This document shows, one piece after another, positions 3,001-64,000 of a DNA stretch of 64,000 nucleotides. Both the position numbers and the translations under genes were made by a program. The number at the start of each line of letters is the position of its first letter. Within the stretch, counting starts at the first letter, position 1. The notes beneath the pieces are model-generated. The model did no database searches and was not told the origin of the DNA. It worked only from the letters and a program-made list of their open reading frames with translations. Source of the stretch: Yuukianura sp. NJ FZ-2021 (taxonomy: Eukaryota); NCBI GenBank assembly GCA_046563655.1, contig JAJCTO010000010.1, positions 372,001 to 436,000 of the forward strand, in the 5' to 3' direction.

Positions 3001-5179
3001 TCCATCCCGCTGGAATGTATTACAGCAAACTTTGTTTCCCTCTAAGTCTCGGCAGCGTGATGCGATCAGCGGAAACTTCACCAACGTGGATTCCAAGTCG
3101 TGAGTTCGAATATTTACCGTCAAATTTATTTCTCAAAACTGTGTAAATGTAGCGTCTTTGGGTCGCTATAAAAAGAGTATCTTCTAGAACCAGGTAAATT
3201 TTTTCCATCCCGCTGGAAAGTATTACAGCAAACTTTGTTTCCCTCTAAGTCTCGGCAGCGTGTTGCGATCATCGGAAACTTGACCAACGTGGATTCGAAG
3301 TCGTGAGTTGGAATATTTACCTTCAAATTTATTTCTCAAAACTGTGTAAATGTAGCGTTTTTGGATCGCTATAAAAACAGCATCCTCCAGAACTAGGTAA
3401 TTTATTTCCATGCCGAAGAACCACAATACATCCAAATATTATGTTTCCGTTTACGTCTCGGCAGCGTGATGCGATCAGCGGGAACTTGACGAACGTGGAT
3501 TCCAAGTCGTGAGTTCGAAAATTTGCCTTCAAATTTATTTCTCAAAACTGTGTAAATGTAGCGTCTTTGGGTCGCTATAAAAAGAGTATCTTCTAGAACC
3601 AGGTAAATTCCTTCCATCCCGCTGGAATGTATTACAGCAAACTTTGTTTCCCTCTAAGTCTCGGCAGCATGTTGCGATCCTCGGAAACTTGACCAACGTG
3701 GATTCGAAGTCGTGAGTTGGAATATTTACCTTCAAATTTATTTCTCAAAACTGTGTAAATGTAGCGTCTTTGGGTCGCTATAAAAAGAGTATCTTCTAGA
3801 ACCAGGTAAATTCCTTCCATCCCGCTGAAAAGTATTACAGCAAACTTTGTTTCCCTCTAAGTCTCGGCAGCGTGATGCGATCAGCGGAAACTTCACCAAC
3901 GTGGATTCCAAGTCGTGAGTTCGAATATTTACCGTCAAATTTATTTCTCAAAACTGTGTAAATGTAGCGTCTTTGGGTCGCTATAAAAAGAGTATCTTCT
4001 AGAACCAGGTAAATTTTTTCCATCCCGCTGGAAAGTATTACAGCAAACTTTGTTTCCCTCTAAGTCTCGGCAGCGTGTTGCGATCATCGGAAACTTGACC
4101 AACGTGGATTCGAAGTCGTGAGTTGGAATATTTACCTTCAAATTTATTTCTCAAAACTGTGTAAATGTAGCGTTTTTGGATCGCTATAAAAACAGCATCC
4201 TCCAGAACTAGGTAATTTATTTCCATGCCGAAGAACCACAATACATCCAAATATTATGTTTCCGTTTACGTCTCGGCAGCGTGATGCGATCAGCGGGAAC
4301 TTGACGAACGTGGATTCCAAGTCGTGAGTTCGAAAATTTGCCTTCAAATTAATTTCTCAAAACTGTGTAAATGTAGTGTCTTTGGGTCGCTATAAAAAGA
4401 GTATCTTCTAGAACCAGGTAAATTCCTTCCATCCCGCTGGAATGTATTACAGCAAACTTTGTTTCCCTCTAAGTCTCGACAGCGTGTTGAGATCCTCGGA
4501 AACTTGACCAACGTGGATTCGAAGTCGTGAGTTGGAATATTTACCTTCAAATTTATTTCTCAAAACTGTGTAAATGTAGCGTTTTTGGATCGCTATAAAA
4601 ACAGCATCCTCCAGAACTAGGTAATTTATTTCCATGCCGAAGAACCACAATACATCCAAATATTTTGTTTCCGTTTACGTCTCGGGAGCGTGATGCGATC
4701 AGCGGAAACTTCACCAACGTGGATTCCAAGTCGTGAGTTCGAATATTTACCGTCAAATTTATTTCTCAAAACTGTGTAAATGTAGCGTCTTTGGGTCGCT
4801 ATAAAAAGAGTATCTTCTAGAACCAGGTAAATTTTTTCCATCCCGCTGGAAAGTATTACAGCAAACTTTGTTTCCCTCTAAGTCTCGGCAGCGTGTTGCG
4901 ATCATCGGAAACTTGACCAACGTGGATTCGAAGTCGTGAGTTGGAATATTTACCTTCAAATTTATTTCTCAAAACTGTGTAAATGTAGCGTCTTTGGGTC
5001 GCTATAAAAAGAGTATCTTCTAGAACCAGGTAAATTCCTTCCATCCCGGTGGAAAGTATTACAGCAAACTTTGTTTCCCTCTAAGTCTCGACAGCGTGTT
5101 GAGATCCTCGGAAACTTGACCAACGTGGATTCGAAGTCGTGAGTTGGAATATTTACCTTCAAATTTATTTCTCAAAACT
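1..5179. repeat. Satellite 1: tandem array of two related monomers, A (203 bp) and B (206 bp), about 25 full copies
   Basis: The motif aaatt(t/a)atttctcaaaactgtgtaaat recurs every 203-206 bp. A carries gagtatcttctagaaccagg; B carries cagcatcctccagaactagg. Order read from ~61: ABABABBABABAAAAABAAABABAA. The array runs off the left edge. Confidence 0.97.
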
Positions 5180-43105: not shown

Positions 43106-43205
43106 NNNNNNNNNNNNNNNNNNNNNNNNNNNNNNNNNNNNNNNNNNNNNNNNNNNNNNNNNNNNNNNNNNNNNNNNNNNNNNNNNNNNNNNNNNNNNNN
43201 NNNNN
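43106..43205. other. Assembly gap (100 N)
   Basis: Exactly 100 N, typical of a scaffolding placeholder, so the true distance between the satellite and the right-hand contig is unknown. Confidence 0.99.
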
Positions 43206-44612: not shown

Positions 44613-45670
44613 ATTAAAACGTAACAATTCCAATGCTATATTAAATAAACGTAACAATTCCGAGCAGATATTAGTTAATTGGTGACTATCCAAGGGTTAT
44701 GTCACTCACTTATGTGAACATGGTTACTAGGATTAAGAACTGCATTATGTCAACCAAAATAGTGATAAATTTTACCAGAAATCATCCCGGCAAACTAACG
44801 ACGCTTTAGAGTTAGCTTTAACTATGTTTTCATAAGTTATAAAGCTAAAGCTAAAGCTAACGATGTTCCGGTAACGTGCCTATTATAAGTTTTAACTTGT
44901 ATGGTTCCTATCATAAGCATAATGGAATGAAGGAAATCCGCGTGCAAGACTCACTGTGTCCTGTGTCCTCTTCCAATGGAAAGTGCATTGGCATGGTGAC
45001 ACCAATGCTATTTTTTCTTGTGCTTTGAGAACTGGAAAGAACCAAGGGTGGGAGTTCACACACATTTCTCCAAGCACAGACTTGTTCTCTCTTCTCAATC
45101 TCAAGTTTTAATTTTTCAACTTTTGCGTATATTATGTTTTAAGTTTTATCAGCTTTCAATCGTCATGATCGGCGGCCATCTCACCCTCCCCCAAATCGGA
45201 CAAGCGCCTAATGTGCAACTGGGTTTCATATAATTTAAAACAGAAAGAAGTTGATAAAGGGAATAAATAGTTTGTGTAATTTCTATAGTTATAAATTACT
45301 AGAAAACAAATTAATTATGCACAACATATGTTTACGCACACAAAACATTTCAACAGCTGCCATTTTTTGTTAGCGGATTCTTTCTGTTTGTGCAAATTTT
45401 TTTTTCGGCGGGACACTTGCACGCCGCGCATTTCCAAGTTCTCCGCTTTTTCAGTGTCAAAAAAAAGTTCCCTCTATTCTTAAGGAAAGAAGGAGGGGAT
45501 GGGCAGCTTTTTTTTCTTATGGAAAAATAGCACAAGTAGATGAGGGCTTTTTGAAAGGTTAAGTTATGATCAGAACAGTATCTACCCACATTTCTCATCC
45601 GTGCTACTACCGAAGATAGTAGACTATGGTGGCCCCAGAGTGCCAATGCTGTTTTTCCCATTTTGTAATT

Positions 45671-46003
45671 CAAAAAGCATTTTCAAATGCATTTTCAATT
45701 GCATTTCATTTTAAAAAGCATTTTCAAAAGCATTTTCAATTGCATTTCATTTTAAAAAGCATTTTCAAATGCATTTTCATTTGCATTTCATTTTAAAAAG
45801 CATTTTCAATTGCATTTCATTTCAAAAAGCATTTTCAATTGCATTTCGTTTCAAAAAGCATTTTCAATTGCATTTCATTTCAAAAAGCATTTTCAATTGC
45901 ATTTCAATTTCAATTTCAAAATGAAAATGCACTTGGCCCTTCTGGGCTCCTAATTCAAATTCAATTTGAAAATGAAAATGCATTTGGCCCTTCTGGGCTC
46001 CTT
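45671..46003. repeat. AT-rich minisatellite (aaaagcattttcaattgcatttcattt) ending in a duplicated ttggcccttctgggctcc unit
   Basis: Direct tandem units of about 27-39 bp are visible in the sequence. Confidence 0.85.
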
Positions 46004-51272: not shown

Positions 51273-52283
51273 TGTAACGCCGGATTTTGAGCCACCTCCA
51301 AATCAATCAATTGATTTGGAGTTGGACCGAATTCGTACGCCTAATTAGTTAAGACAAAACTAGTTAAAACCGGGTAAGAGACATGTCGAGTATGCAGATT
51401 GATAATTAAGGAAAGTTTTGAAATTGAGACAGGAGGTCTCAAGACTTATGATAAGAAAAAGGTGATTTGACAAGTCCCTTGGACTTGTCATGTAAAACAA
51501 CTTGCTCAGCAAGTTTGACATCTGTCAAACATGGGGTGTCCACTCGCAAGAGAGTTGATTCTCCCATTCAAAATCCCTGTTTATCAATTTGCATAGGATC
51601 GTAACTTTGTGCAATCTTGGACATTAATGACAAAGCTGGATCTTAAATCCTGGTCATTAACGTCCAACTTTGAACTCAGGTCGCTAAGCGTCCCTCAGCT
51701 GAAGGACAGTTCAGGTCAAGTGTAAGGTTATAAATATAAGCGGAACCTTGTTAGCATTAAGTCATTTCTAGATTAGCTTTTGGCTAAGCTCTTTCTCTCT
51801 CTCAGATCAGTTGACTAGATTGTAAAATTGCTCTTTAGAATAAGTCTTTTGGGGAACAATAAATACTCTTCCGGGAATTTCTCTCCACCGTTCGTCAATT
51901 CCTCGTCTTAGAAGCTTGCACATCTGCCACCGTCACTTTCGCTGATTCCGCTGTTCAGGGTTCAACTGGTGTCAACCGTAGCTGACCAAGGTAAGGGAAT
52001 CTTCCCTTTTCATCCAGGGTTTAGAAAAACAGTAGAAGCACTTGAAGATTCATACACTAGATGATGTGGGTTGGTGGGACCAGCCCCACCCAACGTAGGT
52101 CATGAGTTAGGGGAAGTCTTAAGGGCCCGGAAGGGTCAAAGGGTTAGGTCGCGAGAGGGGTGGCAGGTATTAGACCTGCAGAAGCTAGGAGCATCAGCGT
52201 AGCCCAGTCGTTTTCAGAGAACGACTGAACAGAAATGTTAAAGTAGAGACTTTATTAAACGCTAAGAAAATCACCCCGTTTCA
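51273..52283 (+). mobile_element. ~1.0-kb LTR, probably the 3' LTR of a truncated LTR retrotransposon
   Basis: Starts TGTAACG and ends CGTTTCA (imperfect terminal inverted repeat). A purine tract (ggggaataa) lies immediately upstream, with TATAAATATAA at ~51729 and AATAAA at ~51858. Copia coding sequence begins right after the CA. The flanks (aataa / ctaac) are not a TSD. Confidence 0.6.
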
Positions 52284-52999
52284 CTAACTGCAACCACGTC
52301 CAAGAATTGAAACGTCGCCCCTATTGCGCCAAATGTAACAAACGCGGTCACTGGGCAAGAGAATGCAGAAGTCGGCAACCACCGCCCTATTACTACAGAT
52401 CAGCCGAAGCTTACGATGACTACTACGAGCCGTACAACTACCCTACGCATTACAACTCATATCAAAGCCAGACTCCAGATTTTGAATTCATTGCTTCAGA
52501 TCAAAGTCAACCCAGCTCAAATTTATTCAGCCCACCTAGTTCACCAATAAATCAGCATCATCAGTGCAGCAACCAAGGGATCAAGCACTACGCACCGTCT
52601 TCCCGCAGCGGCTTCCTAGCCGCAGACATCCCGAATCACAATGGTAGCGACTTCACATGTTACAGCGACTCTGGAGCCTCACAGCATTTTTGCGGGAACA
52701 TATCACTACTCAGCAACTACGAAGAATTTAAAACGCCACTGCCAATTCACCTTACTGACAATCGCAACGCATACGCCCTAGGAAAGGGGACCATAGCAAT
52801 TAAAGCTAAACTTGGAAATGAATGGCGAAACTGCACACTTACCGACGTTTGGTACATTCCAAATTCTGTCAACTTATTTTCCGAAATTGTAATGGTCAAG
52901 CAAGGATTCTCAATCCAACGCGACATCAACTCTTCATCGACTCGCTAGGCAAAATTGGACCATCAGCAGCACTTCGTGGAAATATTTACGTAATGGATT
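52284..52999 (+). pseudogene. Ty1/Copia gag-protease fragment
   Basis: CCHC knuckle CAKCNKRGHWAREC, Copia protease motif SDSGASQHFC, and GKGTI...LTDVWYIPNSVNLFS. Frameshift near 52930. Bounded by LTRs on both sides. Confidence 0.88.
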
Positions 53000-53270
53000 T
53001 GTAGCGGGACGGTACACCACCCACACCCACCCCCACTGGACAACAGGTGTAATACACAATCTAACGTAAGGTAGATTAGGCAGATGTGTGTCAGTCTTTA
53101 TCTGGAAGTGAAATAAAGAACTTCTCAAAGTAGATCTCTCTGGACGCAAGGTCCACAAAGCAGTTTAGATCACATTTTAATGAGTAGTTCAGCTTCCGGT
53201 CACGGGTCACAGGTCATCTCATCACTCAGCCACCCCGGTCTGCCGCACGTGACGACTTGGTAGCCAGCCG
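53000..53270 (+). promoter_or_regulatory. Putative 5' LTR (~257 bp) and primer-binding site
   Basis: TG at 53000 where Copia coding sequence stops, AATAAA at ~53112, and PBS-like TGGTAGCCAGCC at 53258 (the first 7 nt match the 3' end of initiator tRNA-Met). The LTR 3' end is not a clean CA. Confidence 0.55.
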
Positions 53271-53963
53271 AACATCGTTTCCAAAGGAATCGCAGTCAGA
53301 AGAAGACAAAAATCATCACTTCAAAGGCCAAAAAACAAAGGTACACATACCAAAATCTCAAAAAAAAATTCAAAGGCAGCATAATCATTGACCGACATAA
53401 CCCGGAAATCGAATTGAAATCGTGACCTCGAAGGTCAGAAGCGTCGGAAAGCACCTCAGCGTAGCAGCCGCCATTTTGGAAAAAATTCCGAAAAAGAAGG
53501 GGAAAAAATAGAGTCCTTCACAGTCAACGACCCGTTAAAGACAGTTGATTTGCATATCTCATTATCTCCTTTCATAACGGTAACTCAGTAGAGTAACCGA
53601 CAGAAGACGAGACAACAAAAACATAACGGACAGTTCAGATTAACTTTTTTTGCAATTCCACTGGAATTGCAGGGCAAAAAAAAAAGCGAAAGCAAAGCAA
53701 AAGTAAACATAAACACACGCAGCCAGTGCGGACGTAGAAGTAGACATCCTGCGTCTCTTCGTTCACTTTCAATTGCACAATTCCTTTTACAAACAAATTT
53801 AAAAAGTAAATTTGGAAAAAACTAAACAAATTAAACAAATTAAAAATAAAATTCAAAACGGAATAACGCAAAAACGTAATCCTACGCTCTATTAAAGAAA
53901 AAATTGAAGTCCTTTTACAAAAAATTATTAAAAAACAACGTAAAATCAAAGTATTACGTTAAA

Positions 53964-54465
53964 AGGTAGCCCAGTAGGGCAAGCTAAGAATCAAGGTAAC
54001 ACAGTAGTGTAACCTCTAAGGTAACTCAGTAGAGTAACCTAACAAAAGGTAACCCAGTAGGGTAACCTCAAGGTAACGCAGTAGTGTAACCTCAAAGGTA
54101 ACACAGTAGTGTAACCTCAAGGTAACGCAGTAGTGTAACCTCAAGGTAACGCAGTAGTGTAACCTCAAAGGTAACACAGTAGTGTAACCTCAAGGTAACG
54201 CAGTAGTGTAACCTCACAGGTAACACAGTAGTGTAACCTCCAAGGTAACTCAGTAGAGTAACCTAACCAAGGTATTCCAGTAGGGTAACCTCAAGGTAAC
54301 TCAGTAGAGTAACCTAACAAATAGGTAACCCAGTAGGGTAACCTCAAGGTAACACAGTAGTGTAACCTCAAAGGTAACACAGTAGTGTAACCTCCAAGTA
54401 ATTCAGTAGAGTAACCTAACCAAGGTAACCCAGTAGGGTAACCTTTAAAGGTAACCCAGTAGGTT
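53964..54465 (+). repeat. Tandem array of about 20 stem-loop units aggtaacNc-agta-gN'gtaacct in the Gypsy leader (one more copy at 53578-53599)
   Basis: A 22-nt core with 2-8-nt linkers. N/N' is always A-T, T-A, C-G or G-T. Confidence 0.93.
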
Positions 54466-54576
54466 AGGTTAGCCTAACCAAAACCTAACCAAAATCAACA
54501 ACAATTAGATCAACAGCAAATTGATCAACAAGAAACAGAATACAAAAAAGACCTTCAACGTCTATTTGATGTCGGT

Positions 54577-56038
54577 TTGCCAGCTCCCAACCTAAATCCG
54601 GCACGTCCAAATCCAAATCCAGGACCAAGCAGCAATCCAAGTCAAGGGCAAGTCTTTTCAGACGAACAAATGGCCCAATTAACACAAATGTTCCATGTGG
54701 TAATTAATGCTGCGGACCAAGCAAAAGAAGCCAGAGCCCGAGCAACAAAAGCACAAGACGAATCTAGACAACCGTCATTAGTTCGAGGAGCCCCAGCAAC
54801 CAATCAAATTGACAGACGCTCTAATACGTCTATTGCTGGACCCAGTCAACTCGTCACACTTGAAACGCTGACGGAAGCACTTCAAACAGTGAGATTGACT
54901 TCAGTCAATTCACAAATTCCAGCTCCGAAATTTAATCCAAAAAAATCAACAGCAGAATCGTTTCTCAAGGATGCAGAACGATATTTTACAAGTGAAGGCT
55001 TTCCACCCCAACAATGGCTGTACATGGTAAAATCCATTTTACCCCAAGAAACACAAAGCATGGTGGGAACACATCCATAATGAAACCGACACTTGGAACG
55101 GATTCAAAATTGAATTTCTCAGAAGATTCGACAATCCAGTCGAACACAGAAACAGAGTCAAATATCTTACAAACAAAGTTCAATTGCTGCATGAACCCAC
55201 AAAAGTTCATATTTACGAAATGCTCAGACTCTCAAAATTGTGTTTCCCAAATGAAACTACTGCTCAGTCACTCTTAAGAGTTCAAAACTCACTCTATCCA
55301 AGAATCAGAACCATGCTGGGAACCAAGGAGTACGACTCTCCACAAGCCTTATTTGATGACTGTCGAACAGTCCATGACAACTTGACAGCACAAGACAAAG
55401 CCACAAAAAGCAAGGATCGTCTACCACCAATTGTCGCTCCAGCAGTGAGCAACGTCGAAGAACGAAAATTCCAACAAGGTCAAAATAATTCAAACAAAGA
55501 CCAAGTGGACGATTCAAATTCAAATTCCAATTCCCGAAAAACCAATTCCCGTGGAAGAGGAAGCTACAAGGGACGATACAGAGGAAAAGGTTGAACTTAC
55601 TACAACACTCGCAATGAAAATGCTGAAACCCAAGAACAAAAAGAAACGGAAAATCCTCAAAATGAAAATTCCCAAAGAGGAAACGACAGAGGTCGATCCA
55701 ATCGGGGCAACCGAGGATCAACACGAGGCGAAAGAGGAAATCACCGTGGACGTCGTTCCAATTACAGAGGAAAAAATTTCGACCCAAATTACCACAGCAA
55801 TTATCGTGGAACCTCAGCAAATCAAAACAATTCAAATAATCAAGCCCCAGCCAGCAATTCTGACAACATTCAATGCAGAAAATGCAGAGGTTGCGGACAC
55901 TCGACAAATCAATGTCCCAACAAACAAGGCACAGCTCTAGTTACTCAGGAAGAGTACTATGAAGAGTACGACACTTATGACTCCAACATGAGTCAAAACC
56001 AACAAGCTCAAAGCTCAAACCAACAGTTAAACTGTTGA
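54577..56038 (+). pseudogene. gag: Gypsy gag (capsid plus CCHC nucleocapsid), disrupted
   Basis: PAPKFNP...FLKDAERYF...WLYMV, AWWEH...TW.GFK.EFLRRF capsid motifs across frameshifts near 55050-55085. Premature TGA at 55592-55594, RG-rich linker, knuckle CRKCRGCGHSTNQC at ~55874, stop at 56038. True start uncertain. Confidence 0.85.
56026..56032 (+). promoter_or_regulatory. Putative -1 ribosomal frameshift site G TTA AAC at the gag/pol overlap
   Basis: Gag reads CAG TTA AAC TGT TGA. The -1 frame GTT AAA CTG TTG AGG is open into the protease. Confidence 0.65.
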
Positions 56039-57363
56039 GGGAAGATAAGCCTCCAGCACCATCTTATCTTCTCCCAATCCTCAAATTTCAAAAATCCCAA
56101 GGTGCAACATCATTGATTTTATCAAAAACACCAGAAATCGAAGCCATTTTCGACACTGGAAGCGATTATACTCTAATTCACAAAAGAGTAGCCAAAAAAA
56201 TTCAAAAGAATTTCAACTTTAGCAATAATCTCACTTTAATTATTGCTAACAATCAAAAAATTCAACCAATTGGATCAGTTCGACTCCAATTCAAGATCCT
56301 GGACAAACTCATAATCACCAATGCATACGTAATGGAAACCCTTCCATTCCCGCTTATCATTGGCAAAGATGTCATGAAGAAACATGAAATCATTCTCGAT
56401 GTCTCAGGAGAAAAGTTCTGGTTTAAGTCAAAACCAGAAGACAAACTTCCAACAATATTCTCATTCAAAAATCGACAGAATGCCATTCTGTTCAGCCTCA
56501 CTTACGAACAACCAAATGGAAAAACTCCATTGGACAAAAAAGAAGCTAGAATTCTTGAAATTATTCAAAAATTCCCAGAAGTCGCCAGAGACGACAATCT
56601 GAACGGCAGATCTTACCAGACATGAAATTGAAACAGAAGGCGGACCAATTCAACTCCGACCTTACAAATATGCTCCAAACTTAAGAAACATTCTCAACCA
56701 AGAAATCGAGCAATTAATTCAAAAAGGAATGGTGAGACAGTCCAGATCCCCTTACTCAGCACCAGTCGTGTTAGAGAAAAAAAAACTCAGACAAGTACAA
56801 GCTCTGCATCAATTACATCAAACTTAACGCAAGTATGAAGAAAAACGCAGCTCCAATGGACAATTGCAACTCCATTTTACGAACAATCCCGCCAAACTAC
56901 TGGTACACTGTTCTCGACTTGAACTCAGGATTTTGGCAAATTCCAATGCATGAAAATAGCATTGAGAAAACTGCATTCATTACACAAGACGGCCACTACG
57001 AATTCCTAGTGATGCCGATGGGATTGAAAAATTCACCAAAAACATTTACCTCATTGATGAGAATCGTTTTTCAAGATTACATTGACGTTTTCATCAAAAT
57101 TTTCGTTGATGACATCCTCATTTACTCACCAACCTTGGAACAACATTAAATGGACCTTGAAAAAGCCCTGGAAAGACTCAAAGAAGCCAAATTAACAATC
57201 AATAGAATCAAATCAGTTTGGGCACAAACTGAAGTCCATTACATTGGTCATGTTGTTGGCCAAGATGGAATTACCAAACAACCTTCAAAAGTCAAAGCCA
57301 TAATGGAATTTCCAACTCCACAATGCAAACAAGACATTTTACGATTCCATGGAATGTGCGCGT

Positions 57364-57613
57364 CAAGATTGCTATAGCAACCGATTGAATTGCTACACCA
57401 GGTTATCCAGTACCTCAGGGTTTCCAAAAATCTTGCTGCAAACAACTTTTTGAACCAATTTTGAACCAATTCCCATTAGACTACATACAAATCATTACCA
57501 TAGAAAGGCACGGCGACGCAAGTTTTGCAAATTATTTGAGAAAATTAAAAACATCGACTTACTGGACAACCTGGTGTAGCATAAACAATTTGTTTGTTTG
57601 TTTACCCACCTTG
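57364..57613. mobile_element. 250-bp hAT-like MITE inserted in pol
   Basis: 8-bp TSD gtgcgcgt (57356-57363) / gtgcacgt (57614-57621), termini caag...cttg, and a subterminal 22-bp inverted repeat tgctacaccaggttatccagta / tactggacaacctggtgtagca. Removing it restores GMCAWY. Confidence 0.85.
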
Positions 57614-59955
57614 GTGCACGTGGTACGCCACCTTCATCAAAAACTTTAGTTCAAAAGCCGAACCATTACATCATCTTCTCAGAAAGAACGTAAAATGGCG
57701 ATGGGGTCAAGAACAAGAAAATGCCTTTCAAGAAATCAAAAGAGCGATGGCAGAAGATGTCACTCTCAAAACAATTGATTACTCAAAACCAATAATCATG
57801 CAATGTGATGCCTCAGAAAATGGACTCGGAGCAGTTCTTGTCCAAGAAATTGACGGCAAAGAAAGACCAATCATGTTTGCAAGCAAATCACTCAAAAAGT
57901 CAGAACGAAGCGCTCATATTCATGGGAAAGAGCTGTATGCCATAATATTTGCATATGACAAATTCAGAGAATTTATTGAAGGACACCCCTTCATAATCGA
58001 AACTGACAACAAGGCAGTCAGTTACCTAAATTCCATGCAAAACAAAAAAGCCAAACTTACAAAATGGGCAATCGCGATCACATCCTGGAACGCAACCATC
58101 AGATTCAGAAAAGGATCCGAAAACATAGTTGCAGACGCACTCTCAAGAGCCAGCCTTCCAGAAATGCAAAACGATCCCGACATGCTCCAAGACAGAGACA
58201 ATATTCTATTACCAACATTTCTACTTGTCTACTGCACTCCATCATTACAAGATATTTCAACGGAACAACGAAAAGATCCACAAATTCAAAAAATCATAAA
58301 CGAACTCAAAGTTACGAAGAATGCTCGGCCAAGCATTACTAGTAATTATGTCTTCGACAGAAACGTTTTGTTCCGAAAAATCAAACCATTCAAAGGAAGG
58401 ACTGCAACTTTACCAAAATTGACTCAAGTCAAATCAAAAATCTGTCATGAAACAATTTGTTTCAAACCAGGTTGCATCCATCCAAAGACCGTCATTACGG
58501 CACAAAAACCAAATCAAAATCAAGAGAAGACAACTGAAGAGAGGAGTCATGAACCTCAGACGCAGCCAGTCAACTCAAATTTACCCAAAAATGACAAGGA
58601 TCCTAACATAAATCAAGAAAAAACCATGGTACCAGTAATTCCAGAAACTATGAAAACAAAAATAATGGAAATCTTCCATGACTCCCCAGAAGCCGGACAC
58701 TTCGGGAGAACAAAAACTCAAGAAAGAATCAAACAAAGATGCTATTGGAATAACATGAACAGAGAAATTGCAGAATATGTCAAAACTTGTGACAAATGCC
58801 AAAAAGTAAAAATCTCAAATAGGAAACCCTATGGAGAATTAGGATTTGCAAAACCGCCATCCGAAGTATTCGGAACAATACATGTTGATTATCAAGGTCC
58901 ATTTCCAACAAGTGCGGGCGGAAAACAAAGCAAATATTTACTCGTCGTTCTAGACGAACTGTCAAAATGGGTTGAACTTTTCCCCATGACAGCGGCAACT
59001 GCAAAGAAAACTGAAGAAATACTGGAAGATCAAATCTTCTGCAGATTCGGATCTCCACACACAATAATCTCAGACCATGGACCTCAATTTACTTCCAACA
59101 TAATCGCTGATTTATGTGAAAAATGGAAAATCAAACATAAAATGATTGCTGAGTACCATCCTCAAGCCAATCAATCTGAGAGAACCAATAGAAGCATCAA
59201 AACAATGATTCAAGCATACATTGAAGAAAGTCATCACAAATGGGACCAAAACATTCAAAAATTCGCTCTAGCATTACGCACAGTCGTAAATGAAACAACA
59301 AAAGTCACCCCAGCATTATTAAATCTGGGAAGGCAAATTCCATTGCCATTTGACAGAAATTTACAACAAAGTCCAACTCAGGTTGACTTAAACCACGCTC
59401 AAAAAGTTCCAAATGAACTTAAAGAATTAATTGAGTACGTGAGAGCAAACATGGAAATAGCCCATGAGAAAAACCGAATGTATTATAACAAAAGTCACCG
59501 TGATGTGACATTTAATGAAGGAGACTTCGTCCTCATTAAAACGCATATCCTATCCAGTAAGGATGAAGGGATTGCACAAAAATTATCCCATAAATGGGAA
59601 GGTCCATACAAAATTGGCAGTAAAGCCACTCCAATTACTTACGAAATAGTAAGAATTGATGACAATTCTCATGTAGGGAGACGGCATGTTTCCCAAATTA
59701 AACAATATTTTGTCCGAAAAATAAAACAAAAAATTAATCAAAAGAAAAATGATTCAGTTCCGTTGAACGATGAATCTGAAAACTTACCAAGACTTAGACA
59801 AAAACAAAGAGTCAATTATCGCACGCTCGCAGGTTATCACCGCTAAGCGCGAAACCGGAAACAAAAACACAAAAAATTCTTTCCAAATTCCAAATACCAT
59901 ATCAATGTGAGAAATCACAATCCAGAATTAATTAACTTTAATTCCTCAATTTCAG

Positions 59956-60714
59956 ATGGCAACTCCATGGCTAAAACTGAAAGCAGAAATGGAAAAAAAA
60001 TACGGAAAAGCCAAAACCAGACCATTCTACAATCCGAAATTCCAAGGATTCCGAAATTACTGTATCCAAAGAAACAAGGACGGCTACGACATACAGCAAA
60101 ATCCGAAACTTGCCGAAATGACCAAATTCCACATCACAGAATCAATGTCAACATACAAAACTGGTCAAAGTATCAAGGATGACAGAGCTACCACTCCAGT
60201 CATCATTCCTGGAAAATATTCCGAATTCAAAAAGATGCTGGATGACCTCAAAATTCAAGAAGAAATTGCATTCGACACTGAATTTTCTGACGGAACAGAT
60301 CGAGCCTACTTTGGTCATACGTACCCGGCACTTATTCAAATCTCAACACAAGAAAAAGATTACGTGATCTGCCCTTTCCAATTTGGCGAAAAAATACAAG
60401 AACTCAAACAAATATTTGAAAATCCTAACATTATCAAAATCGGATTCGACCCTAAAGAAGATGTCAAAAAACTGAACTTGTTTTACAAAATATTCCCCGT
60501 CGGAATCATTGACCTACAGCGAGCCTATTACAAATTCCCACAACCTCCAGACGAACCAGAACGTCAAAGACAAGAAAATTACTGGAGAGTAATTTCCACT
60601 CTCATTCCAAATGTTGAACCAACCAATCTAAAAGCAAAATCCTTGTCCTGCAGAACAGAAACCGTCTGGAACACTGTGCGGGAGAATCAACTGAATAGAT
60701 TTCTGCTCAAATAA
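59956..60714 (+). CDS. ORF3: DEDDy 3'-5' exonuclease (RNase D/RRP6/WRN-like), C-terminally truncated at ~60640
   Basis: ExoI IAFDTEF, ALIQIST..KDYVI, LKQIFENPNIIKIGF, ExoII EDVKKL, IIDLQ. ExoIII (YxxxD) is absent, and the last ~25 codons appear to come from the adjacent LINE fragment. Confidence 0.85.
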   Translation: MATPWLKLKAEMEKKYGKAKTRPFYNPKFQGFRNYCIQRNKDGYDIQQNPKLAEMTKFHITESMSTYKTGQSIKDDRATTPVIIPGKYSEFKKMLDDLKIQEEIAFDTEFSDGTDRAYFGHTYPALIQISTQEKDYVICPFQFGEKIQELKQIFENPNIIKIGFDPKEDVKKLNLFYKIFPVGIIDLQRAYYKFPQPPDEPERQRQENYWRVISTLIPNVEPTNLKAKSLSCRTETVWNTVRENQLNRFLLK

Positions 60715-61765
60715 AGGAGATTCTGCAAAATTCGCTAGTTGCCCTCACTAACCAAATTCAGCATACTCAGCGTCTGGGTAAGTCAACTGCTCAAACTCCA
60801 AACAAACCATTCAAAATAATCTTCCAATCTCTGGACACCAGGAATACCTTCTGGAGAAATCGGATGCGTGTCAAACAACCATTTCCAGCTCTCAGGATTA
60901 ATCATGATCTCGCACCTGCCACAAGAAAAAAAGGTAGCTGCCAAACGACAGAACCTAACCATCAATGCTAACGAACAATACAGACACAACGTCAACACTC
61001 CAGCCCAGACTACTACATTCGCTCAAAACCCTGGCTTCGTACAATGCAGCACGACTCCACGATCAGCACCGTTGTGATAACCAGCTACAACACAACGTCG
61101 AAAAGTCAAGTATGAGCTTAATATCGCTCAATTGAATATGCGCTCATATTCAAACAAATTCTCCAAAGTGTGGCATCTTCTAAACCTACATAATATCGAC
61201 ATACTTTGCTTATGTAGTCCGGCCTGGATAGCTCGGTGACTATATTCTCTATTGGTCATTCGAGTTAAATAAGTGTGCTAGGGCGAGGAGCTTGGATGGG
61301 TACCCACCATGGTCTTGTCTTTCTTTGAGCTAGGTGTTTCAGCCTAGCACCGGCATATGCGAGTGTCTCCTAGTGTGTTTTTCACTGTGGTACTCAGAGA
61401 CCAAAAGGTTTCCCACTAGGCGTAGCGCGAATGCAGGACACTCGTTCCTGTCCATCGTGCAGTTAGTAGAAGCAGAGTAAAGACTCACCGAAACCTGGAC
61501 GGCTTCAATTAGTAGAAGTAGCGTAAAGACTCATCGAACACTGAAGGGACAGGGCTAGGAGGGGGTCTTCCCGGTAACCGGAGCCTGCCATGGGCTACGG
61601 GCCCGTAGGGTGGGTAACCTCGAAAGAGGTTGGACATGATATAAAAAAAATACTTTGCTTATGTGAAACCTGGCTCACGCAAAACGTCACGAAAACCGTT
61701 CCTCCCGGATACTCAATGTGCAGAAACAACCGAATTCACAAAACAGGATGAGGAGTCTGCAAAAG
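60640..61765 (+). pseudogene. CR1/L2-like LINE fragment: end of ORF1 and start of the ORF2 AP endonuclease, split by a SINE
   Basis: My translation gives QRLGKS...KPFKIIFQSLDTRNTFW...LRINHDLAPATRK (~60700-60930, ORF1 RRM-like), then LNIAQLNMRSYSNKF...IDILCLC|ETWL...PPGYSMCRNNR...G*GVC (~61117-61760, APE motifs). Confidence 0.8.
61216..61649 (+). mobile_element. ~434-bp SINE-like retroposed structured RNA
   Basis: Perfect 15-bp TSD atactttgcttatgt (61201-61215 and 61650-61664), A-rich 3' tail, and a tRNA-like head ggcctggatagctcggtg. Confidence 0.85.
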
Positions 61766-61821
61766 AACAAAAAAGGTTGGTTTCGGATTTTGGGTCCAAC
61801 TTCGAGCAAGGAAATGAAAAT

Positions 61822-61918
61822 GAAGGCGGTGTCCCGACATCCTGGAAATCCGGCATAGTCATTGGCATGAGTTGTAGAATCAGTGTAAAAAAAATTGAGA
61901 TGTCGGGACACCGCCTTC
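61822..61918. repeat. Perfect 20-bp inverted repeat around a 57-bp spacer (mini-MITE-like)
   Basis: gaaggcggtgtcccgacatc (61822-61841) / gatgtcgggacaccgccttc (61899-61918). Confidence 0.75.
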
Positions 61919-62300
61919 TAACCTAAAAGTGCCACCAAAGTTGACCATATTTCGATGGAAAAAATCAAAACTTTCGTTTCTTTCTGGTGCAAAATAGTTT
62001 TTAACACTTGCGTGCACATTTGCACAACTGAAATAAACAGGGAAAAAAAAACAGGTTTTACTGTTTGCACAATTTTAAAATATAGATTTTTTATGCACAA
62101 TTTTATGCTTTTGATGTTTCCTAGGAAACGATTCGTTTCATGAAATGTTTGTTAAGATGTGTCCACTTTTATGAATTTTAAAAAACAAAAATCTCAGTTC
62201 GTTTCCAGTTTCCGACTTGTACGGAAGTGAAAAAATCTTGTCCACGAAAGGTTAATTAAAAAGTTCTTTTAAGAACTAAGCTGAACGAACTTACCCAAAA

Positions 62301-62841
62301 ATGGGACGCTGGGAATGTGAACAATGTCTGCGAAAGTTACAATCTAATCAAAGGAAGCACGTTTGTGATGGGAAATCGATTTGCACAAGGTGTTATGTGA
62401 CTCTGCGTGAAGCTTCAGGCTCTATTGGTCGAAAGTTAAGAATTGGTAAGTTCAAAAATACTCGAGAATGTTAAATTATGGAAATGAAGTTGCGGATTTC
62501 GAATCATTATTGACTTTTTCTTTGCTGTAGCCATTGCTTCCAGCAAACCTATTTTGCCAGTTCGGCCAATCACAAGAAGCCAAGCCAATTTTCACAATAA
62601 TGAGGAAAATGAAGATATCGAAGAAAATGCTTCCATGGACATTGACAGCCAACAGTTCTCCGCTCATTCCCAAGGTATAAAATGAAAAATCTGTTCTTTG
62701 TGTTGGAAATACTGTATGTCAAAGTACTAAACTTTACAATTTCTTTTCAGATGTTTCACTTCCCGACTCAAACCAACCCATGTCGCCATCTTCGGGAGAA
62801 GACAGTTATGACCATTCTCAACTTTCGAATTTTTCTACACT
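62301..62841 (+). CDS. Spliced gene (exons 62301-62445, 62531-62674, 62751-62841+) encoding an N-terminal CxxC...CxxC zinc-finger-like protein, interrupted by an LTR element
   Basis: ATG at 62301 gives MGRWECEQCL...KSICTRCY. Two GT-AG introns of 85 and 76 nt, both phase 1, keep the frame open (AIASSKPILPVRP...HSQDVSLPDS). Branch-like tactaa in intron 2. Confidence 0.65.
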
Positions 62842-63054
62842 TGTAATGTACGTAAGAAACTACGTAATTATAGAAACTAGTTATTTCCAGTTTAGGCATC
62901 ATTGCTGATGCAACTTTCCTCCCACCTTTCTTAGCACGTAAGTCTTAGCTATAAAAGCTCGAGCTCTCTCAAGCACTTCATTCTATTCTCACATAGAATC
63001 GGCCCAATAAACACACACTCTTCTTTTCCATACACCACACATTTTGGCGACGAG
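62842..63054 (+). mobile_element. 5' LTR (62842-63041, 200 bp) and PBS of a Mag-like Gypsy element
   Basis: TG...CA termini, TATAAAA at ~62950, AATAAA at ~63006, PBS TGGCGACGAG at 63045-63054. Confidence 0.85.
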
Positions 63055-63119
63055 AGTAAAAGCCCAAAACTCATCCCTCTTTTCCAGCAATACTTGCCCA
63101 ATTATTCCAGGACAATAAC

Positions 63120-64000
63120 ATGGCCACTGCTATTGTTGGAACCCTAAAACCCTTCGATTCATCAAGCGATGATTTTGAAGATTGGGTGGATGTCTATAAG
63201 TCATTCCTCGTAGCGAATGGACTTAGCTCAGAATCCACTGACGCGGACGTGCAAAAGAAACGCGCCGGCATTTTTCTTTCGTCCCTAGGCATATCCACAT
63301 ATTCCTTGCTAGTGAATCTGCTATCACCAATTTCACCACTCAAGGCGGAGCTTAAGACCTTGATCACAACCCTGCAGAATCACTTTAAACCAGCCCCTAA
63401 AGCCCTCGCAGAGAGATACAAATTCTCATTACGGAAACAGCGCCCAGGCGAATCCGTATCCGCATTTCTCGCAGCCCTGCGAAAAATGGCAATCACGTGC
63501 AAGTTTGGTACCAACCTCCCAAACCACTTAAGAGACCAATTTATCTTTGGCTTAACAAGCGAGCGTGCCCAGAAGGCGGTTTTCACTAAAGAGGATGAGG
63601 TGACCTTGGAGGAGGTTCTCAAGGTCGCGGTGTCGCACGAAGCTGCGGATACCAGTGCAATGGTTATACGTAATCCAAACACCTCAGAGGTAAATTTCGC
63701 GTCCACGGCACGTCGCCCATTTCAGACACCACATCGTGGTAGGGGGCGTGGCCGGGGTGGCCCACAGAGGGGTAGCGCCCAATCACGACCTTCTGGAGCC
63801 CAGCCCTCCAGAAATGGTCAATGTCCAAACTGCGGCTCCAAGGCCCACAGTACCGCTCGCGACTGTCCACACAAGGACGCAGAGTGCTTTGCATGTGGCA
63901 AACGTGGCCACTTCAAGAAAATGTGCCGGAATGGCAGGAAACCCCACACAACCCACACGGTAGGTCAGGACACTTCGGAGAACTACGTCTCGAATGTGAA
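63120..64000 (+). CDS. gag: Gypsy (Mag/K02A2.6-like) gag, open to the window edge
   Basis: My translation: MATAIVGTLKPFD...AERYKFSLRKQRPGESVSAFLAALRKMAITCKFG...LRDQFIFGL...CPNCGSKAHSTARDC...CFACGKRGHFKKMC. It is absent from the ORF track, presumably because there is no stop within the window. Confidence 0.92.
   Translation, partial: MATAIVGTLKPFDSSSDDFEDWVDVYKSFLVANGLSSESTDADVQKKRAGIFLSSLGISTYSLLVNLLSPISPLKAELKTLITTLQNHFKPAPKALAERYKFSLRKQRPGESVSAFLAALRKMAITCKFGTNLPNHLRDQFIFGLTSERAQKAVFTKEDEVTLEEVLKVAVSHEAADTSAMVIRNPNTSEVNFASTARRPFQTPHRGRGRGRGGPQRGSAQSRPSGAQPSRNGQCPNCGSKAHSTARDCPHKDAECFACGKRGHFKKMCRNGRKPHTTHTVGQDTSENYVSNV

What the first reader, a model, noticed from the sequence alone, without database searches (positions are those of the whole stretch)
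53578..54465. Array of about 21 covarying RNA stem-loops in a Gypsy 5' leader
Seen: each unit folds as aggu-(A.A mismatch)-acNc / AGUA loop / gN'gu-a-accu. The variable pair N-N' is A-T in 6 units, T-A in 5, C-G in 6 and G-T in 4, and is never a mismatch. Two other positions also covary: a-t to g-c in the 53964 copy, and the outer a-t to c-g in the isolated 53578 copy. Two c-to-t changes keep U.G pairing. The cAGUAg loop and the internal A are invariant. Inference: G.U tolerance points to selection on the + strand RNA, so this looks like a multimerised protein-binding hairpin (analogous to an MS2/PP7 cassette) lying between PBS and gag. Possible roles are packaging, localisation or translational control.
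Basis: partly seen in the sequence, partly recalled or inferred. Interest (0 to 1): 0.82.

Follow-up and report, generated by a model that had tools for sequence, protein, structure and literature searches.

The report
Hairpin repeat array before Gypsy gag
A dead Gypsy-type retrotransposon carries, just upstream of its gag gene, about twenty tandem copies of a 22-base unit that folds into the same small hairpin, and its base changes keep the pairing, so it may be a repeated RNA docking site, though its partner and function are untested.

Summary
There are 21 units: one isolated at 53578-53599 and 20 in tandem at 53964-54470. Each is a 9-pair stem with an invariant A.A mismatch and an invariant AGTA loop. 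The variable pair N:N' is A-T in 6 units, T-A in 5, C-G in 6 and G-T in 4, and is never mismatched.

The array is a higher-order repeat, so independent events are few. Even counted as unit lineages, 4 of 6 two-change lineages are compensatory (P about 3e-7 to 4e-6 under independent substitution). In contigs of two other organisms, 3 of the 4 listed stem differences restore pairing or keep a Watson-Crick pair, and the fourth leaves a wobble pair.

The strand argument from G.U pairs is weak (4 events against 1). Both strands fold equally well. No Rfam family matches, and I could fetch no related leader DNA.

My best reading is a selected plus-strand RNA hairpin platform, most likely for the element's own Gag (one CCHC knuckle and an RG-rich region). 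This is inference. The rivals are a host-factor platform, a neutral hypervariable UTR repeat shaped by template switching, and DNA-level binding sites. The LTR and PBS were not verified. Interest is moderate.

The parts
53578..53599 (+). Isolated hairpin unit (T-A type) with its outer pair changed to C-G
   Evidence: It folds at -9.7 kcal/mol. It is unchanged in X1 contig record 3, all 6 of whose differences are listed and lie elsewhere. No difference is listed here for X2 record 13 either, but 1 of its 6 differences is unlisted.
53651..53671 (+). Separate perfect 9-pair hairpin in the leader (TGCAATTCC / ACT / GGAATTGCA)
   Evidence: Read from the sequence. It is present in the minimum-energy and centroid folds of 53560-53965.
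53964..54470 (+). Tandem array of 20 hairpin units of 22 nt each, with spacers of 2-8 nt and start-to-start spacing of 24-30 nt. The order of N types is C A T C G A G G A G A T C T C A A T C C.
54462..54479 (+). Different 7-pair hairpin (GGTTAGG / TTAG / CCTAACC) at the 3' edge of the array. It overlaps the last, decayed unit and is followed by two copies of CCTAACCAAAA at 54473-54494.
   Evidence: Sequence, TRF row 54473-54494, and the fold.
54670..55940 (+). gag, broken. It reads in one frame from the ATG at 54670 to a double stop ending at 55083, continues in another frame from about 55031, and has a further stop at about 55595. An RG-rich basic region and one CCHC zinc knuckle lie at 55874-55915.
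   Evidence: Pfam gave no hit for these frames.
55981..59846 (+). pol in pieces: aspartic protease (55981-56625), reverse transcriptase fragment (56775-57149), and RNase H plus integrase (57585-59846)
   Evidence: Pfam hits. The closest named relatives are springtail Ty3/Gypsy Pol proteins at 37-38% identity.
59932..60714 (+). ORF3 fragment with a DEDDy-type 3'-5' exonuclease domain (Rrp6/RNase D-like). It matches only the first two thirds or so of the domain model.
   Evidence: PF01612 at E 8e-18; Rrp6 structures at E 7e-11; 302 relatives at E<=1e-3; 16 of 16 top hits scanned carry PF01612 and 6 of 16 also carry HRDC.

Best explanation
The array is a multimerised cis-acting hairpin module of the element's plus-strand genomic RNA. 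It lies in the long leader about 200 nt upstream of the gag start codon.

Each 22-nt unit forms a 9-pair stem with a fixed A.A mismatch and a fixed four-base loop that exposes a G. About twenty such units in a row would give a high-avidity platform for an RNA-binding protein. I take the most likely partner to be the element's own Gag, through its single CCHC knuckle and RG-rich basic region. In that case the array would nucleate selection, dimerisation and packaging of the genomic RNA.

Because every unit is a quasi-palindrome, the same units can also pair between two RNA molecules. The three N:N' types would then keep such pairing in register.

Shown: the array, the fold, the pairing-preserving pattern of change, and the variable unit number and spacers between copies. 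Inferred: that the RNA (not DNA) is the active form, that a protein binds it, and that the protein is Gag.
For: 1. **Structure.** RNAalifold on the 21 units gives ..((((.((((....)))).)))).. and 3 of 8 pairs show double changes. 96.1% of cells are paired against 86.8% in shuffles (0 of 500 reach it). The covariation score is 0.298 against 0.105 (0 of 500). Slid controls give 20-44% paired.
2. **Lineage-corrected test.** Ignoring N/N', 16 of 18 interior units are identical, so the three Watson-Crick N:N' types differ only at the two partner columns. Of 6 unit lineages with two changes, 4 are compensatory: T-type, C-type, unit 53964 and unit 53578. P is 2.6e-7 to 4.1e-6. Dropping the isolated unit gives 3 of 5, with P 1.5e-5 to 1.2e-4.
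3. **Loop and mismatch.** No change falls in the loop or A.A columns (21 of 21 invariant). P is 0.012 to 0.041 if changes were spread evenly.
4. **Other copies.**
   - 53983 G>C in all three runs restores the G-C pair, so the window's G.G is private.
   - 54001 A>C and 54008 T>G occur together in the one contig of organism B, changing A-T to C-G.
   - 54201 C>T gives U.G.
   - The other two listed differences inside the array, 53992 and 54217, lie in spacers.
5. **Spacers vary and units do not.** There are 9 distinct spacers among 17. Other copies show indels of 1-6 nt at unit boundaries (table 4).
6. **Stability.** The six better-folding of the 9 units folded give -7.9 to -10.6 kcal/mol, with the hairpin as 58-90% of the ensemble.
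7. **Candidate partner.** gag encodes a CCHC knuckle and an RG-rich region.
8. **Dimer option.** Same-type homodimers are slightly more stable than two hairpins (for example -18.4 against -16.6). Mixed types stay as hairpins.
9. **Not coding.** No open frame of 70 aa or more lies in the array, and the spacing is not a multiple of 3.
Against: - The number of independent events is small, about 4 double changes. The 54001/54008 change in organism B could be a swap of whole unit types by unequal exchange and not a new compensation.
- The test assumes independent substitutions. Template switching can write a complementary change into the other arm in one mutational step (PMC8794818, abstract).
- The strand is not settled. 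The minus strand folds as well (-211.5 against -189 kcal/mol; z -9.3 against -9.4). G.U-compatible changes outnumber A.C changes only 4 to 1 (P 0.19).
- The contig of organism B has 24 differences over 692 nt and 3 listed ones in hairpins, so hairpins show no slower rate of change. 6 of its differences were not listed.
- This copy is dead and sits in satellite-rich DNA. Unit number differs between copies (joints 54041>54488 and 54316>54488), so part of the array may be post-insertion expansion.
- No relative's leader could be fetched, so there is no cross-family test.
- No binding data exist.
Confidence: 0.4

Rival explanations
1. The hairpins are a selected RNA platform, but for a host protein or for the element's ORF3 exonuclease and not for Gag. 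Possible roles are nuclear export of unspliced RNA, RNA localisation, control of gag translation on a long structured leader, or protection from or recruitment of an RNA 3'-5' exonuclease.
For: - The same structural and covariation evidence applies as for the best explanation.
- The element carries an Rrp6/RNase D-like ORF3, whose full-length relatives often add an HRDC nucleic-acid-binding domain.
- The array sits in a leader whose 53560-53965 stretch also folds better than shuffles (z -4.0).
Against: - Nothing in the sequence points to a particular host factor.
- No Rfam family matches at E<=1 apart from a chance miRNA hit on both strands.
- ORF3 here is a fragment.
- No run holding the stretch is on record as RNA.
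Confidence: 0.2
2. The array has no function of its own. It is a hypervariable tandem repeat of the kind common in LTR-retrotransposon untranslated regions, built from a quasi-palindromic unit and expanded by slippage or unequal exchange. Its complementary changes were written by short template-switch mutations and not by selection.
For: - It is a higher-order repeat with few founder types (A-T-C triplets and a G-A sub-repeat).
- Unit number and spacers differ between copies.
- Word depth over some unit junctions is 10-30 times that of the flanks, which hints at larger arrays elsewhere (table 2; the tool warns that depth is not copy number).
- Template switching can create and repair stems in one event (PMC8794818, abstract).
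- Retrotransposon UTR repeats are known to seed satellites (PMC7004042, listing and start of abstract only).
- Hairpins do not change more slowly than the rest of the leader in organism B.
Against: - All three N:N' types share the A.A mismatch three bases from N'. They therefore descend from one already mismatched unit. Any template-switch tract would have had to be very short, twice, at the same pair, and never repair the A.A in 21 of 21 units.
- Changes avoid the loop and the A.A columns (P 0.012-0.041).
- Spacers vary far more than units.
Confidence: 0.22
3. The units act as double-stranded DNA. They would be an array of palindromic binding sites for a dimeric factor, serving as an enhancer or insulator in the leader, as the Su(Hw) sites do in Drosophila gypsy.
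For: - The place and layout match the gypsy insulator, which has 12 sites in 340 bp of the 5' untranslated region separated by short variable spacers (PMC2374998, passages read).
- A DNA palindrome looks the same on both strands, which fits the equal folding of both strands.
Against: - A DNA-binding dimer selects particular bases and not complementarity. Three Watson-Crick types at N:N', plus the A-T to G-C change in unit 53964, are not expected.
- The two half-sites differ in every unit at the A.A position.
- The G-T units are mismatched as a palindrome.
- The published Su(Hw) consensus has 0 matches in the array at up to 1 mismatch. The window holds 4 matches in all, fewer than the shuffled mean of 11.9.
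Confidence: 0.1

Closest known systems
Su(Hw) binding-site array (gypsy insulator) in the 5' untranslated region of Drosophila gypsy
   Same: Both are a multimerised short motif between the 5' LTR side and gag of a Gypsy-type element, with short variable spacers. The gypsy array has 12 sites in 340 bp (PMC2374998, passages).
   Different: Those sites are not palindromic, are read as DNA by a multi-zinc-finger protein and show no pairing covariation. Their consensus is absent from this array.
Retroviral packaging and dimerisation hairpins in the leader between PBS and gag
   Same: The position upstream of gag is the same. Both are small hairpins with an exposed G in the loop, and Gag has a zinc knuckle. 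Palindromic sequence allows pairing between two genomes. These properties of retroviruses are recalled from general knowledge; of the review PMC7599994 I saw only the search listing.
   Different: Retroviral signals are a few different hairpins, not about 20 near-identical tandem units. No packaging signal is defined for this element, and binding was not tested.
Repetitive structural motifs in packaging signals of plus-strand RNA viruses
   Same: Both involve short structured RNA repeats proposed to mediate capsid-RNA recognition (PMC8206606, start of abstract only).
   Different: Those repeats are in RNA viruses, not in a retroelement leader, and are not a head-to-tail array of one hairpin.
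Xist A-repeat and engineered MS2/PP7 cassettes
   Same: All are tandem short hairpin units separated by variable linkers that act through multivalent protein binding. This is recalled; of PMC6917512 I saw only the listing.
   Different: One is a host lncRNA and the others are artificial constructs. The sequences are unrelated. This is an analogy of design only.
Hypervariable tandem repeats in untranslated regions of LTR retrotransposons that seed satellites
   Same: Both are tandem arrays inside an element's untranslated region, with copy number varying between copies (PMC7004042, listing and start of abstract).
   Different: In that listing and the start of that abstract I saw no mention of structure-preserving covariation. 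The described cases are in plant elements. The claim that they lie mostly in the 3' UTR is recalled.
LTR retrotransposons with a DEDDy exonuclease ORF3 (bdelloid rotifer Juno and Vesta)
   Same: This element also has an RNase D/Rrp6-like exonuclease reading frame after pol (PMC5408684, passages).
   Different: The host lineage differs: the closest named Pol relatives are from springtails, and one of them has the exonuclease domain on the same protein as pol (P0164). That paper does not mention hairpins or tandem repeats (0 occurrences of each term).

Membership tests
Any curated RNA family (Rfam 15) | Covariance-model match at or near the family's gathering score | tested here: not met
   A search of 52900-54700 on both strands at E<=1 gave only MIR8675: 22.4 bits against a gathering score of 90.8, E 0.29, and a near-equal hit on the opposite strand. 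This is a chance hit to a palindromic repeat.
Structured RNA element under selection for pairing | Compensatory changes in more than one pair, significant after allowing for shared descent | tested here: met
   3 of 8 pairs show double changes. 4 of 6 two-change unit lineages are compensatory, P<=4e-6. Differences in other copies restore or keep pairs. Caveats: the events are few, and the null model assumes independent substitutions.
Structured RNA element under selection for pairing | Strand assignment from G.U against A.C asymmetry | tested here: inconclusive
   4 G.U-compatible events against 1 A.C event on the + strand, P 0.19. Both strands fold equally well.
Retroviral-type packaging signal | Lies in the leader between the primer-binding site and gag | tested here: inconclusive
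   The array is upstream of gag on the same strand. No LTR pair, 3' LTR, PBS or tRNA match was found.
Retroviral-type packaging signal | Bound specifically by Gag/NC and needed for genome packaging | not testable with these tools
   Only the presence of a CCHC knuckle and an RG-rich region in gag is shown.
gypsy-type Su(Hw) insulator | Repeated matches to the Su(Hw) consensus from the gypsy 5' UTR | tested here: not met
   0 matches in 53000-54700 at up to 1 mismatch. The whole window holds 4 matches, below the shuffled mean of 11.9 (consensus taken from PMC2374998).
Hypervariable LTR-retrotransposon UTR tandem repeat | Tandem array inside the element's untranslated region, with unit number varying between copies | tested here: met
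   TRF array. Contigs join 54041 to 54488 and 54316 to 54488 and show spacer indels.
Hypervariable LTR-retrotransposon UTR tandem repeat | The same unit amplified as long arrays outside the element | tested here: inconclusive
   Word depth of 1500-5000 over some unit junctions against 85-160 in the flanks is only a hint. No genome is held to check it.
Ty3/Gypsy (Metaviridae-like) LTR retrotransposon | gag with a zinc knuckle, then protease, reverse transcriptase, RNase H and integrase in that order | tested here: met
   Pfam hits in that order, the CCHC knuckle, and Pol relatives. The LTRs were not found.

The most novel reading that the evidence does not exclude
The array is the genome-selection signal of a Gypsy-type element. 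About twenty copies of one hairpin would each dock a Gag molecule through its zinc knuckle, and the units can also zip two genomic RNAs together. The three N:N' 'bar-code' types would keep both the local folding and the intermolecular pairing in register. This would be a natural counterpart of engineered multi-hairpin cassettes and the first defined packaging module for this group of retroelements. A bolder variant is that the hairpins are the handle or shield for the element's own Rrp6-like exonuclease.
Probability: 0.2. Interest if true: 0.75.

Novelty: new variant of a known kind. Interest (0 to 1): 0.5.

Why it matters
As far as I recall, how Ty3/Gypsy-type elements and insect endogenous retroviruses pick out their own RNA for packaging is poorly defined. 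A leader made of about twenty near-identical small hairpins with a fixed loop, a fixed mismatch and one freely covarying pair would be a very simple system. One 22-nt RNA could be tested against Gag, the ORF3 exonuclease or cell extract.

It would also show that nature uses the multivalent design that experimenters build with hairpin cassettes.

If instead the pattern comes from template switching in a neutral repeat, it is a clean warning. Compensatory-looking changes in repeated palindromes can arise without selection.

Tried and rejected
- **Rfam:** no family matches.
- **Whole genome:** none is held.
- **Motif in IMG/VR:** 0 matches.
- **Motif in metagenome contigs:** 3 loci with a single match each and no array nearby, so these are chance hits.
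- **Pol relatives in IMG/VR:**
  - The single protein gave none.
  - The 12-sequence alignment gave 3 loci with only a 30% match over about 100 integrase-core residues, so they are unrelated.
- **RNA runs:** no RNA holder is listed. All three runs laid are DNA contigs.
- **LTR search:** self-BLAST of 43000-64000 and a sensitive BLAST of 52400-53620 against 60500-64000 found nothing.
- **tRNA scan for a PBS partner:** 0 genes.
- **Bacterial-type promoter and terminator scan:** not above chance and not relevant to a eukaryote.
- **Coding reading:** rejected. The only open stretches of 70 aa or more in 53560-54480 lie at 53588-53958, outside the array, and are low-complexity.
- **Direct-repeat reading (two GTAAC boxes per unit):** rejected, because unit 53964 breaks the direct repeat but keeps complementarity.
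- **Splice-site-like reading of AGGTAAC / CAG:** considered from recalled consensus only, and dropped. The two motifs are 8 nt apart and lie inside the stem.
- **Su(Hw) sites:** absent.
- **Literature:**
  - The 20-nt unit string occurs in 0 papers.
  - Two full-text searches brought up nothing describing such an array: gypsy / LTR retrotransposon / untranslated region / tandem repeats / stem-loop (203 papers held the terms, 25 listed), and errantivirus / leader / tandem repeats / hairpins / packaging signal (191 held the terms, 15 listed). I read titles and abstract starts only, and subscription journals are not covered.
- **Word-index protein search with ORF3:** 0 hits. The full HMMER scan found relatives.
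- **Not done:** I built no covariance model, because no further sequence was available to search with it.
Full report
**What is there**

Tandem Repeats Finder reports an array at 53991-54462 with period 24, 18.7 copies and score 548. The motif GGTAACNCAGTAGNGTAACC, allowing 2 mismatches, occurs 19 times in the window. All hits are on the + strand between 53579 and 54443, and 100 shuffles gave 0.

Anchoring on the CAGTAG core gives 21 units: one isolated at 53578-53599 and 20 head to tail from 53964 to 54470. Each unit is 22 nt:
- a 5' arm AGGTAACNC;
- a loop AGTA;
- a 3' arm GN'GTAACCT.

This makes nine stem positions, with an A.A mismatch at the fifth. Start-to-start spacing is 24-30 nt, and spacers are 2-8 nt long.

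N:N' is A-T in 6 units, T-A in 5, C-G in 6 and G-T in 4, with 0 of 21 mismatched.

- The loop, its closing C-G pair and both A's of the mismatch are invariant in 21 of 21 units.
- The A-T to G-C change in unit 53964, the outer C-G in unit 53578 and the two C-to-T changes giving T.G (units 54270 and 54396) are all present.
  - 53964 has a G.G mismatch.
  - 54270 has a T.T mismatch.
  - 54396 has an A.C mismatch.
  - In 54449 the 3' arm is replaced by other sequence.

I folded 9 of the 21 units on their own. Six gave -7.9 to -10.6 kcal/mol, with the hairpin as 58-90% of the ensemble; unit 53964, despite its extra mismatch, is among these at -8.7. The three decayed units 54270, 54396 and 54449 gave -4.8, -1.6 and -3.3.

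**Context**

The array lies upstream of, and on the same strand as, a Ty3/Gypsy-type element.
- **gag:** the frame opens at 54478 and the first in-frame ATG is at 54670. An RG-rich basic region and one CCHC knuckle lie at 55874-55915.
- **pol:** protease, a reverse-transcriptase fragment, then RNase H and integrase follow.
- **ORF3:** a third frame at 59932-60714 carries a 3'-5' exonuclease domain.

The copy is dead. gag is interrupted by a double stop and frame changes, and pol is in pieces.

I found no LTR pair, 3' LTR or PBS. 'Leader upstream of gag' is therefore confirmed, but 'between PBS and gag' is not.

A copia-like gag lies directly upstream (52259-52948). The window also holds about 38 kb of a 160/161-bp satellite, so this is repeat-rich, probably heterochromatic DNA.

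The closest named Pol relatives are from springtails at 37-38% identity. Closer unnamed relatives (44-49%) come from metagenomes. No whole genome is held for the window.

**Is the pairing more than chance and descent?**

Results on 16 distinct rows:

| Measure | Observed | Control |
|---|---|---|
| Cells paired | 96.1% | 86.8% in shuffles (0 of 500 reach it) |
| Covariation score | 0.298 | 0.105 in shuffles (0 of 500 reach it) |
| Cells paired, 3' partners slid by 1-3 columns | (as above) | 20-44% |

These controls do not remove shared descent, and descent matters here. The order of N types is C A T C G A G G A G A T C T C A A T C C. That is an A-T-C higher-order repeat plus a G-A sub-repeat, which TRF also sees as a period of 49. 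I therefore counted lineages, not units.

- With N and N' ignored, 16 of 18 interior units are identical. The three Watson-Crick types thus differ from each other only at the two partner columns.
- Six unit lineages carry two changes relative to their nearest type: T-type, C-type, unit 53964 (setting aside its private G at 53983), unit 53578, unit 54270 and unit 54396.
- Four of these six are compensatory.
That gives P = 2.6e-7 to 4.1e-6 for 4 of 6.
- Dropping the isolated unit, whose outer pair could be flank, gives 3 of 5 with P = 1.5e-5 to 1.2e-4.
- None of the 14 substitutions (10 events) falls in the six loop and A.A columns, P = 0.012 to 0.041.

The number of events is small, however.

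**Other copies**

Three public DNA runs hold the stretch: X1 and X2 (one sample, organism A) and X3 (another study, organism B). None is on record as RNA. Laying their contigs gave the only view of sister copies.

Six differences inside the array are listed:
- 53983 G>C in all three runs. This restores the G-C pair of unit 53964, so the window's G.G is a private decay and that unit is a clean A-U to G-C covariant.
- 54001 A>C together with 54008 T>G in the single 899-nt contig of organism B. These are N and N' of unit 53994, changing A-T to C-G.
- 54201 C>T in X2, which turns the closing pair C-G into U.G.
- 53992 and 54217, both in spacers.

All six differences of X1's 547-nt contig are listed. 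The only one inside a hairpin is 53983.

Caveats:
- 19 differences were not shown.
- Repeat units can be aligned in more than one register.
- The double change in organism B may be a swap of unit types by unequal exchange and not a new compensation.
- Hairpins do not change more slowly than the rest of the leader in organism B (3 listed of 24 differences over 692 nt).

Copies differ in unit number. One contig joins 54041 to 54488 and another joins 54316 to 54488. Indels of 1-6 nt sit at unit boundaries. Within the window, 9 distinct spacers occur among 17. The 22-nt hairpin is the conserved module, and the linkers are free.

Word depth over some unit junctions is 1500-5000, against 85-160 in the flanks. 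This hints at larger arrays elsewhere, but the tool warns that depth is not copy number.

**Which strand, RNA or DNA?**

Folding cannot tell. The + strand gives -189 kcal/mol (z -9.4) and the - strand -211.5 (z -9.3).

The four G-T units are most simply one A-to-G change amplified in the 49-nt sub-repeat. Over all single changes, 4 are G.U-compatible on the + strand and 1 gives A.C, P = 0.19. The best argument for the + strand RNA is context: the array lies in the sense-strand leader of a retroelement.

A double-stranded DNA reading, with palindromic sites for a dimeric factor, does not predict complementarity at a free position. It does not predict half-sites that always differ at the A.A position, and it does not predict the G-T units. 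The published Su(Hw) consensus of the gypsy 5' UTR array (PMC2374998, passages read) is absent from the array.

A reading as two direct GTAAC boxes fails on unit 53964, which loses the direct repeat but keeps pairing. The array is not coding. No Rfam family matches.

**A mutational rival**

Template switching during replication can copy one arm of a quasi-palindrome into the other and so create 'compensatory' changes in one step (PMC8794818, abstract read). This weakens the independence assumption.

Against it:
- All three N:N' types share the A.A mismatch only three bases from N'. They therefore descend from one already mismatched unit.
- Any switch tract must have been very short, must have hit the same pair twice, and never repaired the A.A in 21 of 21 units.

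I keep this rival at about 0.2. With it goes the known tendency of LTR-retrotransposon untranslated regions to carry hypervariable tandem repeats (PMC7004042, listing and start of abstract only).

**How it most likely works**

I commit to a multimerised plus-strand RNA hairpin that serves as a multivalent docking platform, most likely for the element's own Gag.
- Gag has one CCHC knuckle and an RG-rich region.
- The loop exposes a G.
- The position upstream of gag is that of retroviral packaging and dimerisation signals (recalled general knowledge).

Each unit is a quasi-palindrome, so same-type units can also pair between two RNAs. Computed homodimers are slightly more stable than two hairpins (for example -18.4 against -16.6 kcal/mol), while mixed types stay as hairpins. 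The three N:N' types could therefore keep folding local and keep intermolecular pairing in register.

All of this is inference. I have no binding, probing or expression data. A host factor (for export, localisation or translation) or the ORF3 exonuclease is a serious alternative partner.

**Comparison with what is known**

- The closest in place and layout is the gypsy Su(Hw) array, but its defining motif and its DNA-level logic are not met here.
- The closest in proposed mechanism are retroviral leader hairpins and the repeated structural motifs of RNA-virus packaging signals (PMC8206606, start of abstract).
- The closest in design are the Xist A-repeat and engineered hairpin cassettes (recalled).
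- The unit string occurs in no paper searched, and two full-text searches listed nothing describing such an array (titles and abstract starts only).

I rate it a new variant of a known kind: a hairpin array as a retroelement leader module.

**ORF3, noticed in passing**

- Its closest solved relatives are Rrp6 exonuclease domains (E 7e-11).
- A full HMMER scan finds 302 relatives at E<=1e-3.
- Of the 16 top hits scanned, 16 carry the exonuclease domain and 6 also carry HRDC.
- One springtail Pol relative carries the same domain on the pol protein (P0164).
- DEDDy-exonuclease ORF3s in LTR retrotransposons have been published for bdelloid rotifers (PMC5408684, passages read). So this is a new member of a known kind, in a different host lineage.

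**Verdict**

The structural interpretation is partly supported: the pairing signal is real and survives lineage correction, but the events are few, the strand is unsettled and a mutational rival remains. The function is untested. Interest is 0.5. The finding becomes valuable if arrays in young copies and related families show the same pairing rule, which I could not test because no related leader DNA could be fetched.

Noticed in passing
window 59932-60714 (+): A third reading frame after pol encodes an Rrp6/RNase D-like DEDDy 3'-5' exonuclease domain, truncated in this copy. Full-length relatives are 200-800 aa and often carry an HRDC domain. One springtail Pol protein has the domain on the same protein as pol. 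This ORF3 type is published for bdelloid rotifer LTR elements (PMC5408684).
   Followed up: partly
window about 5020-43100: A very large satellite array with a 160/161-bp period, about 237 copies and many 97-100% identical. It ends at a 100-N gap at 43106-43205.
   Followed up: no
window 54243-54269, 54396-54422, 54461-54494: The 3' arm plus the spacer of T-type units reads AACCTAACC. The 3' edge of the array reads GGTTAGGTTAG followed by two copies of CCTAACCAAAA. These resemble the five-base TTAGG/CCTAA repeat; that this is the arthropod telomere repeat is recalled and not tested.
   Followed up: no
window 61201-61664: An insert of about 434 bp (61216-61649) ends in an A-run and is flanked by a 15-nt direct repeat (atactttgcttatgt at 61201-61215 and 61650-61664). 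It looks like a retroposed SINE-like insertion with a target-site duplication.
   Followed up: no
window 52259-52948 (+) and 63060-63998 (+): Two other retroelement gag fragments flank the Gypsy copy. Upstream is a copia-like gag (Pol_BBD and zinc knuckle). Downstream is a frame with a weak zinc-knuckle match, preceded at about 63035 by a TGGCGACG stretch that looks like a primer-binding site. This suggests nested insertions.
   Followed up: no
window 45608-45968: Another short-period tandem repeat with alternating 12- and 17-nt spacings, 16 overlapping copies of a 110-nt reference.
   Followed up: no
window 53560-53965 (+): The leader between the isolated hairpin and the array folds better than shuffles (z -4.0). 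It contains a perfect 9-pair hairpin at 53651-53671 and a 7-pair hairpin at about 53938-53961.
   Followed up: partly
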